Shown one piece after another: positions 32,241 through 35,914 of a stretch of DNA of 64,000 nucleotides (position 1 is its first letter; each line of letters starts with the position of its first letter). A program made the translations under genes and the position numbers. The stretch covers positions 125,240,001 through 125,304,000 of the forward strand of contig OZ024743.1 in assembly GCA_964016885.1 (NCBI GenBank), read 5' to 3'. The notes beneath the pieces are model-generated. The model ran no database searches. It worked only from the letters and a program-made list of their open reading frames with translations, and had not been told where the DNA came from. Source of the stretch: Eledone cirrhosa (taxonomy: Eukaryota).

Positions 32241-33036
32241 ATAAACGGAAAAAATGAAACGATATTTCATTTCCCACTCTTAGTACGGCTGTTACTTAAA
32301 TATAAGTATGTACACGTACATACATATATGTATACCGACGTACAGTAGTATGTATATATATATATATACATACATGCACACATATATATATGCACGTATG
32401 GATTCATCGAACATTTATTATAATGCTCGGTGTGTTTGTAAACAAACATCCCGTATTAAGCCGTAGTGTCTAGCAACCACCGTTGCTCGTTTGTTCAACA
32501 CTGACAAAGGAACGCTGTACTAGTTTCAAGCTTGTTAGCTATCGTCAGCAACGTATACCTTCCTGCCAGATTGTTGAACGTATATACTTACTTTATGCAT
32601 ATTAATGGCTGAGTAGCCCAATTTGCATATCGAGTGGGTTAATCGGCCGGGTGCACCGAAAACGATAAACGGAAAAAATGAAACGATATTTCAATTCCCA
32701 CTCTTAGTACGGCTGTTACTTAAATATAAGTATGTACACGTACATACATATATGTATACCGACGTACAGTAGTATGTATATATATATATATACATACATG
32801 CACACATATATATATGCACGTATAGATTCACCGAACATTTATTATAATGCTCGGTGTGTTTGTAAACAAACATCCCGTATTAAGCCGTAGTGTCTAGCAA
32901 CCACCGTTGCTCGTTTGTTCAACACTGACAAAGAAACGCTGTACTAGTTTCAAGCTTGTTAGCTATCGTCAGCAACGTATACCTTCCTGCCAGATTGTTG
33001 AACGTATATACTTACCTTATGCATATTAACGGCTGA
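32241..33036 (-). mobile_element. Retrozyme-like tandem repeat: 424-bp unit, ~1.9 copies, one HHR per unit
   Basis: 32241-32664 recurs from 32665 with few substitutions. (TA)n flanks both sides. Confidence 0.8.
32512..32554 (-). ncRNA. Minimal type I hammerhead ribozyme (second copy at 32936-32978)
   Basis: On -: acgttg-CTGACGA-tagct(aaca)agctt-GAAA-ctag-TA-cagcgt, with a 6-bp stem I and a GUA triplet. Confidence 0.82.
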
Positions 33037-35914
33037 TATATATATATACGGCTGATATATATATATATATATATATATATATATATATATATATATATAT
33101 ATATATATATATATATATATATATATATATATATATATATATACATATATATATATATATACGGCATATATATATATATATACGGCTGATATATATATAT
33201 ACATATATATATATAAGTATGCATATATATACATATATATATATACATATATATTTGTATGTATATATATACATATATATATATACATATATATTTGTAT
33301 GTATATATATACATATATATATATACATATATATTTGTATGTATATATATACATATATATATATACATATATATTTGTATGTATATATATACATATATAT
33401 ATATACATATATATATATACATATATATATACATATATATATGTATATATATATATGTATATATATATATATGTATACATATATATATATATGTATATAT
33501 ATATATATATACATATATATATATACATATATATATATATATACATATATATATGTATATATATATATATATATATGTATGTATATATATGTATATATAT
33601 ATATATATATATATATATATATATATATATATATATATATGTATATATATATATATATATATATATATATATATACATATATATATATACATATATATAT
33701 ATACATATATATATACATATATATATATATATATATATATATATATATACATATATACATATATATATATACATATATATATATATACATATATATATAT
33801 ATATATATACATATATATATATATATATATATATATATATACATATATATATATATATATATATATATATACATATATATACATATACATATATATATAT
33901 ATATATATATACATATATATATATACATATATATATATATACATATATATATATACATATATATATATACATATATATATATACATATATATATATATAT
34001 ATATATATATATATATATATATATATATACATATATATATATATACATATATATATATATATATATATATATATATATATATATATATATATATATATAT
34101 ATATATATATACATATATATATACATATATATATATATATATATATATATATATATATATATATATATATATATATACATATATATACATATATATATAT
34201 ACATATATATATATATATATATACATATATATATACATATATATATATATATATATATATATATATATACATATATATATATATATATATATATATATAT
34301 ACATGTATATATATATATATATATACATATATATATATATATATATATACATATATATATATATATACATATATATATATATATACATATATATATATAT
34401 ACATATATATATATACATATATATATATATACATATATATATACATATATACATATATATATATACATATATATATACATATATATATACATATATATAC
34501 ATATATATATATATATATATACATATGTATGTGTATATATATATATATATATATATATATATATATGTATATGTATATATATATATATATGTATATATAT
34601 ATATATGTATATATATATATATGTATATATATATATGTATATATATATATATGTATATATATATGCATATATATATATGTATATATATATATATATATAT
34701 ATATGTATATATATATATATATATATATATATATATATATATATATATATATATATATATATATATATGTATATATATATATATATATATATATAAATAT
34801 ATATATATATATATATGTATATATATATATATATGTATATATATATATATATATATATATATATACATATATATACATATATACATACATATATATATAT
34901 ATATATACATATATATATGTATATATATGTATATATATATATATATAGGTAGTAGGAGCAGATGGATACTAGAGTCGGGTCCATAACTCATATGGGTCAC
35001 CTTGATCAAATCCTCTGCGAAACGCGTGTAACAGTTCGATACGCAATAAATATATGTAAACGAAACTTCTTCGTTTTTCCTATTATACACACACACACAC
35101 ACACACACACACACACATATATATATATATATATATATATATATATATATATATGCATATACATACATATATATTTGTGTGTGTGTTAAAATATTGATTA
35201 ATGCGTAGAGCAATCTATCGTTTTTTCTGACAAAAGTAGGACTATCTTTTTCTCAGATCTTCTTATACCATTGCACCAATATAATCATAGAAACACGCAT
35301 AATGTGGATATATTTGTCTAGACAATGTTTTCCACTTGAATTTTTGAATGTATATATATATAGCTGACGATGGAAACTCCTTTCTTCCTTTCTCCTCCTG
35401 TTCCGTCCTAACCACCATCCCAAACCTTGTTTTTAGTAACCACACAGCACCTTTCGTTTCATAACTTTATATATATATATATATATACGAACTACAACAT
35501 ACATACGAACTACAACATAAAAACACTTAAATGAAAATCACATACCCAACTATATCATGTGCTTTACATTCATTACACCTTACATAAAAAATACCTACAT
35601 TATCACCAAACGCCTCTCTAACAGATTGCACACTATCTTAAATGGTTATTACAAATATAACATGCTTTAACACCCCACACAAAATATGTTTATTTCAACT
35701 GCATTATAACTCTCTCCTCATACATGCATTATTGACTGTATTGACTCCTGCATTGTACATCAATCGTCTTTGCTTGTAACTTCTTCGCCTGTGTTTTTTT
35801 GCTTGTGTGTTTTGCTTTTTTGCTTTTTTACTTTTACTTACATTTCCAAACACTGCTGCCTGTAATTGTGTTATTTCAAGCGGTACATCTTGTTAACTTC
35901 CTGAATCTCCACAT

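What the first reader, a model, noticed from the sequence alone, without database searches (positions are those of the whole stretch)
32241..33190. 424-bp tandem retrozyme with twin intact hammerheads and stuttered end
Seen: ~1.9 near-identical units, each with a clean minus-strand HHR. Predicted cuts at 32941/32942 and 32517/32518 give a 424-nt monomer. The terminal ACGGCTGA is reiterated within the adjacent TA tract (~33047, 33161, 33181). Established: metazoan non-LTR retrozymes are tandem few-hundred-nt units with minimal type I HHRs that yield circRNAs. Inference: a greater-than-unit copy from rolling reverse transcription of a circular RNA, probably by PLE RT.
Basis: partly seen in the sequence, partly recalled or inferred. 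Interest (0 to 1): 0.82.

Follow-up and report, generated by a model that had tools for sequence, protein, structure and literature searches.

The report
Hammerhead retrozyme copy in TA microsatellite
A 796-base non-coding insert made of almost two head-to-tail copies of a 424-base unit, each with a self-cutting hammerhead RNA motif, is one copy of a common parasitic repeat family (a retrozyme, a kind already known from many animals); its odd stuttered end is real, but its cause is open.

Summary
Observation confirmed. 32241-33036 holds 1.88 copies of a 424-bp unit (6 differences in 372 bp) between two (TA)n tracts. Each copy carries a minus-strand type I hammerhead, with predicted cuts at 32942/32941 and 32518/32517. 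The hammerhead is canonical, not minimal: 1-bp helix III with a palindromic loop (dimer type), U.U at the base of helix II. No Rfam model hits it. Public runs show a polymorphic multi-copy family whose units join head to tail, also in a second organism, so local slippage alone is refuted. Near the core, variants fall only on free positions; two or three stem pairs change on both sides (unphased). The window carries Hydra-clade Penelope-like (PLE) fragments, a clade reported to insert into (TA)n: a plausible mobiliser, but with no sequence link to the unit. A circular template is not shown; an uncleaved linear multimer fits equally. The terminal 8-mer recurs three times in the TA tract (once imperfect). 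Reiterated interruptions occur in 9 of 13 TA tracts here, but only this one copies a complex flank end. Cleavage, expression and circles are untested. Verdict: new member of animal non-LTR retrozymes.

The parts
32241..33036 (-). whole insertion, 796 bp = 1.88 circularly permuted units of a 424-bp retrozyme (RNA sense is the minus strand)
32241..32664 (-). complete unit (downstream in RNA sense)
32665..33036 (-). partial second unit, 372 bp, 6 differences from the first
32518..32941 (-). predicted 424-nt monomer between the two cut sites; GC 37%; MFE -142.3, z -8.3; longest ATG ORF 60 aa
32917..33003 (-). upstream type I hammerhead with long bulged helix I; core 32972-32942; helix II U.U + 4 bp + AACA loop; helix III A-U pair with palindromic CUAG loop; predicted cut 32942/32941
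32493..32579 (-). downstream type I hammerhead, core 32548-32518; predicted cut 32518/32517; carries the family letter at 32510
32735..32824 (-). long TA/TG-rich hairpin inside the unit (also 32311-32400); source of spurious miRNA-family matches
32241..32243 (+). 3-nt ATA overlap between the left TA tract and the unit at the 3' (RNA-sense) junction, 277 nt past the cut site
33029..33036 (+). terminal ACGGCTGA at the 5' (RNA-sense) junction, 95 nt before the cut site; ends in a predicted hairpin tetraloop
33048..33055 (+). first reiteration of the terminal 8-mer (19-bp period)
33161..33165 (+). second, imperfect reiteration (ACGGC, lacks TG)
33182..33189 (+). third reiteration of the terminal 8-mer
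31725..32243 (.). left (TA)n target tract
33037..34947 (.). right (TA)n tract, with its own 40-bp internal duplications from 33223

Best explanation
One dispersed copy of an abundant animal non-LTR retrozyme family. SHOWN: a 424-bp non-coding unit that joins head to tail, exists in many variants and in more than one organism, and keeps a canonical type I hammerhead. INFERRED from the known family: tandem loci are transcribed on the hammerhead strand; two hammerheads pair through the ACUAGU palindrome and cut after GUA; the 424-nt monomers can be ligated to circles. INFERRED for this copy: a PLE protein, most likely of the (TA)n-targeting Hydra clade present in this genome, nicked a TA microsatellite, primed reverse transcription inside the unit (277 nt past the cut site, 3-nt ATA overlap), copied 796 nt across two ribozyme junctions and stopped 95 nt beyond the second. 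The template was a circle or an uncleaved multimer (about even odds). The two units were near-identical at insertion and have since drifted by about 0.8% each. The terminal 8-mer was captured once into the TA tract, at joining or by later slippage, and then multiplied like the other interruptions in these tracts.
For: Head-to-tail joint 33036->32613 in 19 contigs of run X1, 1 of X4 (another organism; 71- and 85-nt sides with 0 and 2 differences) and 4 reads of X24; 6,533 X24 reads continue past 33036 into the next unit. Among the 40 variant rows shown (of 66), only two fall in the 31-nt core span, at N7 and in loop II, both free positions (chance about 0.02). Helix I pair 32975/32939 changes on both sides at similar frequencies (X1 0.39/0.46; X24 0.44/0.45 and 0.92/0.91), and 32698/32637 goes G-C to A-U. 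The same core occurs in unrelated contigs with other helix I sequences that pair: 43 of 91 distinct matches have >=4 bp, against a mean of 25.5 and a maximum of 35 in 500 shuffles; L011 has a near-identical core and helix II with a different 6-bp helix I. The monomer folds with z -8.3, and with z -3.8 without the TA hairpin. Both units share minority alleles (32760 C about 5%, 32687 T about 15%), and at least two differences are near-private to one unit (32694, 32934: <1%). Hydra-type PLE pieces lie at 44240-45574, 35912-36349 and 1539-2051, with CxCx5C linker, CxxC/CxH and no CCHH; homologues carry RWK/DKT-type motifs and one has GIY-YIG. Hydra PLEs insert into (TA)n and bear HHRs (PMC8557442).
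Against: No Rfam hammerhead match. No similarity between the unit and any PLE or PLE flank in the window. Variants are unphased and subfamily-linked; 7 of 19 variants at paired positions break the predicted pair; the third double change (32931/32985) does not match in X1 (0.27/0.00), and the first matches poorly in X4 (0.02/0.15). In the free 796-nt fold the swapped double-hammerhead helices have probability about 0, and the forced double form is 11.5 kcal/mol above the MFE and only 2 below two forced single forms, so cleavage may be poor; 8 of 9 Xenopus retrozyme dimers did not cleave in vitro. No target-site duplication can be read in TA. Other TA-targeting PLE clades exist (Naiad). Flanks of other copies could not be seen.
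Confidence: 0.7

Rival explanations
1. Same family and mobiliser, but no circle is involved: the RT copied an uncleaved linear read-through transcript of a tandem array, starting internally. (A variant of the best explanation; the confidence is for the template question.)
For: Anole PLE RT starts inside the RNA and uses mainly unprocessed RNA; HHR mutants do not affect insertion (PMC11167929). The weak 1-bp helix III and U.U in helix II predict slow monomer cleavage (axolotl monomers 6-22% in 1 h, PMC7229834). Tandem joints are common in the family.
Against: The two units agree at 32 of 35 polymorphic rows and share rare alleles, which needs a homogenised source array; the monomer is strongly self-paired with its ends together, as known retrozyme circles are.
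Confidence: 0.45
2. DNA-level origin: a monomer-sized or array-derived piece arrived by recombination or extrachromosomal DNA in a fragile TA tract, or a monomer was duplicated locally; the ribozyme is a passenger.
For: The right TA tract shows its own local duplications; shared rare alleles fit a local duplication too; no TSD is readable.
Against: The internal joint is the family's normal head-to-tail joint, seen in three runs; both ends abut TA exactly, as do the PLE pieces and a second HHR-bearing element in the window; the core is conserved across variants.
Confidence: 0.12
3. The insert is the partial-tandem pLTR remnant of a 5'-truncated autonomous PLE rather than an independent retrozyme.
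For: PLEs form partial tandems with HHRs in their pLTRs and are often truncated; Xenopus retrozymes are related to pLTRs; a Hydra RT piece lies 2.9 kb away on the same strand.
Against: The unit closes on itself, and none of the 20 best-supported loose ends looks like coding sequence (503 rows not shown); the hammerhead is canonical rather than PLE-minimal; no similarity to the window's PLE flanks.
Confidence: 0.1
4. Stutter, reading A: post-insertion microsatellite slippage or unequal exchange captured the last 8 bp (the AT-rich CATATTA just inside the end can misalign with TA) and then multiplied it.
For: 9 of 13 TA tracts examined carry a reiterated interruption of >=2 nt, up to 41 times; the same tract has 40-bp duplications; one reiteration has decayed.
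Against: Only 1 of the 13 tracts, this one, reiterates a complex flank end; the first capture has just 1 nt of exact homology, or needs an extra 2-nt loss.
Confidence: 0.55
5. Stutter, reading B: at integration the RT or repair polymerase switched repeatedly between the end of the RNA/cDNA and TA-repeat template before joining, a telomerase-like reiterative synthesis.
For: The reiterated piece is exactly the element end at the junction where RT stops, and starts at the same base each time; PLE RTs are sister to telomerase RTs; the unit has its own internal (UA)n run.
Against: One locus only; slippage explains the later copies; read support for the stuttered bin is thin (depth 139 in X1, about 2 reads in X24, 0 in X4), so an allele-specific or assembly origin is not excluded.
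Confidence: 0.35

Closest known systems
Metazoan non-LTR retrozymes (Cervera and de la Pena 2020, PMC7229834; parts 2-4 of 6 read, supplement unreadable)
   Same: Tandem 150-450-bp units, canonical type I HHR, GC <50%, self-paired monomer, dimers common, coexistence with PLEs. The helix III (1 bp + palindromic tetraloop) is that of axolotl HHR_Amex1, and the U.U at the base of helix II is that of HHR_Amex2.
   Different: Own sequence family; 424 nt, above the mussel 350-390; internal TA/TG hairpin; insertion inside (TA)n and a reiterated end are not described in the text read ('microsatellite', 'octopus', 'cephalopod' 0 hits); cleavage and circles not tested here.
Non-LTR retrozymes as non-autonomous PLE derivatives (Li, Clavereau and Pollet 2026, bioRxiv 10.64898/2026.07.22.740005; parts 1-3 of 5 read, supplements closed)
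   Same: Meets their working definition (two consecutive units with complete HHRs, MFE < -5); PLEs co-occur.
   Different: No homology to a pLTR could be shown here; their survey covered vertebrates, insects and a coral.
Hydra-clade PLEs (Craig et al. 2021, PMC8557442; passages, section 11 and File S1 search)
   Same: (TA)n target, HHRs, partial-tandem structure; Hydra-type fragments are in the window.
   Different: The insert encodes no RT or endonuclease; it is at most a passenger of such an element.
Minimal PLE hammerheads (Cervera and de la Pena 2014, PMC4209133; part 1 of 4 read)
   Same: Type I topology, dimer-dependent.
   Different: This motif has the canonical 6-bp helix I, 4-bp helix II and palindromic helix III loop, so it is not minimal.

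Membership tests
Metazoan non-LTR retrozyme | canonical type I hammerhead in each unit | tested here: met
   core intact in both units, helices I and II fold; conservation pattern; no Rfam hit
Metazoan non-LTR retrozyme | head-to-tail units of about 150-450 bp | tested here: met
   424-bp period; joint seen in 3 of 4 runs laid
Metazoan non-LTR retrozyme | multi-copy family | tested here: met
   66 variant rows, up to 119 distinct contigs per variant in X1, subfamily indels; copy number not measured
Metazoan non-LTR retrozyme | non-coding, GC below 50%, no LTR-type layout or tRNA module | tested here: met
   GC 37%, longest ATG ORF 60 aa; no tRNA; PBS/PPT not searched specifically
Metazoan non-LTR retrozyme | highly self-paired monomer | tested here: met
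   z -8.3; z -3.8 without the TA hairpin
Metazoan non-LTR retrozyme | self-cleavage | not testable with these tools
   needs in vitro transcription; folding energies are equivocal
Metazoan non-LTR retrozyme | expressed as linear and circular monomer RNA | not testable with these tools
   no RNA run could be brought to bear
Metazoan non-LTR retrozyme | TSD longer than 4 bp when present | tested here: inconclusive
   pure TA on both sides
Autonomous PLE / its pLTR | RT + GIY-YIG ORF attached | tested here: not met
   no ORF in the insert; nearest PLE piece 2.9 kb away beyond a TA tract
Autonomous PLE / its pLTR | sequence homology to a pLTR | tested here: inconclusive
   none within the window; genome not held
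PLE minimal hammerhead | no helix III/loop 3, short helix I | tested here: not met
   palindromic ACUAGU present, helix I 6 bp plus extension (definition)

The most novel reading that the evidence does not exclude
A Hydra-clade PLE reverse transcriptase mobilises this retrozyme from a circular RNA into TA microsatellites and, on finishing, performs telomerase-like reiterative synthesis, alternating between the last 8 nt of the retrozyme template and TA repeats. The stuttered 5' junction would then be a genomic fossil of repeat-addition behaviour in the RT group closest to telomerase.
Probability: 0.12. Interest if true: 0.68.

Novelty: new member of a known kind. Interest (0 to 1): 0.33.

Why it matters
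The class is known, and the RT-on-circle model is the published hypothesis (PMC7229834, PMC7761336), so the element itself is a routine addition. Its value is as a test case. The mobiliser of animal retrozymes is still only inferred, and this genome offers an abundant polymorphic family inserted into (TA)n beside a PLE clade with that target preference. Mapping both ends of all copies would test directly whether retrozyme inserts are randomly permuted (circle) or start at fixed sites (PLE tail rule), and whether end reiteration is an RT signature.

Tried and rejected
No genome is held for the window, so flanks of other copies could not be read. No RNA holder was listed; the one RNA-guess run laid (X20) matched only the low-complexity 32722-32759 stretch: no evidence either way on expression. 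Of 24 listed runs only 4 were laid; the other holders (shares 0.24-0.76 in several further organism labels) are unverified and the small shares were ignored. X1 may be the sample behind the assembly, so it is not independent. Apparent fixed element ends at 32620 and 32687-32690 in X24 were rejected: both sit on AATT (the second with the family letter at 32687) in a RAD library, so they are read as restriction ends (inference). A family-wide 5' end at 33036 (the TCAG start resembles an initiator, recalled) was rejected: almost all reads continue into the next unit (6,533 against about 2). Rfam miRNA matches come from the TA hairpin and are below gathering scores. The exact core-plus-helix II pattern found 0 hits in metagenome contigs; the relaxed pattern gave 105 loci, none homologous to the unit beyond 31 bp of core (L011), none with PLE protein similarity. 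My helix II count missed motifs with an extra unpaired base (only 4 of 107 passed both filters), so only the helix I count is used. The earlier-findings look-ups by sequence, by place and by two word sets were empty. Literature searches for cephalopod hammerheads/retrozymes and for reiterated PLE ends in microsatellites listed no paper describing this family or such a stutter; the library lacks most subscription papers, and the supplements of PMC7229834 and the 2026 preprint could not be seen and may list related families.

Full report
1. Observation. The minus strand carries CUGACGA - U AGCU AACA AGCU U - GAAACUAGUA at 32972-32942 and 32548-32518. Helix I has 6 proximal pairs, a bulge and a long extension (-27.3 and -29.6 kcal/mol; forcing the core open costs 1.4). 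Cuts after GUA give the stated 424-nt monomer. A descriptor written after seeing the motif found 4 hits in the window and 0 in 40 shuffles. Rfam finds no hammerhead at gathering score or among 80 weak matches. The terminal ACGGCTGA recurs at 33048 and 33182 and, without TG, at 33161.

2. The ribozyme. Cervera and de la Pena 2014 (PMC4209133, part 1 read) define the canonical metazoan type I HHR as helix I 6 bp, helix II 4 bp and helix III 1-2 bp with a palindromic loop, active as a dimer. This motif fits that definition, so it is not 'minimal'. The 1-bp helix III and the U.U at the base of helix II match the two axolotl retrozyme hammerheads (PMC7229834). Family variation supports it. Of 40 variant rows shown (26 hidden), two fall in the 31-nt core span, at N7 and in loop II (chance about 0.02). 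On the unit-1 circle, 37 rows were scored (3 dropped because unit 1 already has the family letter): 18 unpaired, 5 keep the pair, 7 belong to three pairs changing on both sides, 7 break a pair. The clearest is helix I 32975/32939 (U.G to G.U or A-U) with matching frequencies in X1 and X24 but not X4; the changes are unphased and linked to subfamilies. The same core occurs in unrelated metagenome contigs with different, pairing helix I arms (43 of 91 distinct matches with >=4 bp; shuffles mean 25.5, maximum 35; relatedness inflates both), and L011 has a near-identical core with a wholly different 6-bp helix I. Against efficient cleavage: in the free 796-nt fold the cis helices I and II dominate, the swapped double-hammerhead helices have probability near 0, and the forced double form (-266.0) is only 2 kcal/mol better than two forced singles and 11.5 above the MFE (tertiary contacts are not modelled). 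Li et al. 2026 saw no cleavage in 8 of 9 Xenopus dimers.

3. It is a family, not a local slip. No genome is held. Twenty of 24 listed runs hold sampled words of the unit; four were laid on 32613-33062. In X1, 9,993 contig records were laid (some only through the low-complexity stretch), with up to 119 distinct contigs per variant; in X24, 75,007 of 12.5 million reads. The head-to-tail joint 33036->32613 appears in 19 X1 contigs, 4 X24 reads and 1 contig of X4, a different organism label, with 0 and 2 differences on its sides. 6,533 X24 reads run past 33036 into the next unit, against about 2 in the stutter bin. So the unit closes on itself and this copy's 5' end is not a family boundary. Subfamilies with indels exist (for example +8 nt at 33003). 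Summed depths near one million suggest thousands of units or more, but the tool says this is no copy number. The monomer is non-coding (longest ATG ORF 60 aa), 37% GC, and self-paired (z -8.3; z -3.8 without the TA hairpin).

4. One template, moderately aged. The two units agree at 32 of 35 polymorphic rows, including minority alleles (32760 C about 5%, 32687 T about 15%). Two differences are near-private to unit 2 (32694, 32934), one is a 17% allele (32824), and unit 1's three T alleles are not among the rows shown. This fits identical units at insertion followed by about 0.8% drift each. It does not separate a circle from a homogeneous linear dimer or a local duplication.

5. Mobiliser. The insert starts 277 nt past a cut site with a 3-nt ATA overlap to the TA tract and ends 95 nt beyond the second cut site; neither end is a ribozyme end, so a linear cleaved monomer was not the template. 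The window holds PLE fragments at 44240-45574 (with an inverted 3' piece at 45575-45815), 35912-36349 and 1539-2051. The first has a CxCx5C linker, CxxC and CxH around the conserved E and N, and no CCHH; its homologues show RWK/DKT-type motifs and one has a GIY-YIG hit (the window's own pieces get no Pfam hit). [quoted passage not shown] This is co-occurrence and a shared target only: the unit has no similarity to those elements, and Naiads also target (TA)n. Frangieh et al. 2024 (PMC11167929, parts 1-2 of 4) show that a PLE protein cuts AT-rich DNA, starts RT inside the RNA and mostly uses uncleaved RNA, so a greater-than-unit copy does not require a circle. The circle model is the published hypothesis (PMC7229834 discussion; PMC7761336 passages).

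6. The stutter. It is not chance (3 of 4 CGGCTGA in 64 kb). But 9 of 13 TA tracts examined multiply their own interruption, up to 41 times, and this tract also has 40-bp duplications, so once one copy sat between TA runs the rest can follow by slippage. What is singular is the first capture: this is the only tract of the 13 that repeats a complex flank end (one other matches an adjoining TG run), and exact homology at the capture point is 1 nt. I put slippage at 0.55, switching during integration at 0.35 and an assembly or allele artefact at about 0.1; read support for that bin is thin.

7. Host. The window looks like a TA-microsatellite-rich animal genome; a dispersed ~190-bp repeat (146-534, 54935-55122, 57182-57357) resembles an octopus SINE from memory only, untested.

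8. Verdict. A new member of the animal non-LTR retrozymes (identity about 0.9; whole mechanism 0.7). Searches listed no description of this family or of such stuttered ends, within the limits of the library and unseen supplements. Self-cleavage, expression and circles remain untested. Interest 0.33; the bold reading (telomerase-like reiteration by a Hydra PLE RT) has probability about 0.12.

Noticed in passing
window 44240-45815 and 38753-52810: Hydra-clade PLE 3' ORF (444 aa open, thumb + linker + GIY-YIG) with an inverted 3' piece, heading an inverted duplication with arms of about 6-7 kb (38753-44507 vs 52810-45574, 94-98%): a PLE-type inverted insertion that seems to have carried several kb of flank.
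   Followed up: partly
window 1539-2966: Hydra PLE RT fragment after a TA tract, followed by a 920-bp palindrome (2046-2966) holding a mirrored hammerhead-like motif at +2590/-2426 with 8-bp helix I and palindromic ATATATAT helix III.
   Followed up: partly
window 35912-36488: A further Hydra PLE RT piece on the minus strand (with stops) overlapping a weak endonuclease match on the plus strand, 2.9 kb from the retrozyme.
   Followed up: partly
window 38492-39070 and 52810-52500: A second TA-flanked non-coding element with a long (GAAA/TTTC) hairpin and one hammerhead-like motif (CUGAUGA...GAAAUGAUCAUA, +38961/-52608; 4-bp helix I, palindromic helix III); CGTATTTATATATA on both sides looks like a target-site duplication. 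The two copies belong to the inverted duplication.
   Followed up: partly
window 52810-53137: TA tract with GAC reiterated 6 times beside the truncated end of the second element, whose own sequence has GAC near that point: a possible second end-stutter, but too short to be significant.
   Followed up: partly
window 50863-51444 and 12267-12872: LINE-type RT fragments: one inside a 2.9-kb TA tract in one arm of the inverted duplication only (identified by eye), one with a Pfam RVT_1 hit (E 3e-18).
   Followed up: no
window 37383-37803: 146-bp tandem repeat, 2.9 copies, 95%, with no hammerhead core found by the scans.
   Followed up: no
L011 753-783: A 1,153-bp contig with about 79-bp terminal redundancy (unit near 1,074 bp), a hammerhead almost identical in core and helix II but with another helix I, followed by short TAACCC-like runs: another retrozyme- or PLE-like unit.
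   Followed up: partly
L007, L014, L016, L023, L042 and others: A large group of dispersed type I hammerheads with the same U...U GAAACUAGUA core and a UGGC/GCCA helix I in metagenome contigs; L018 and L050 hold them as inverted pairs.
   Followed up: no
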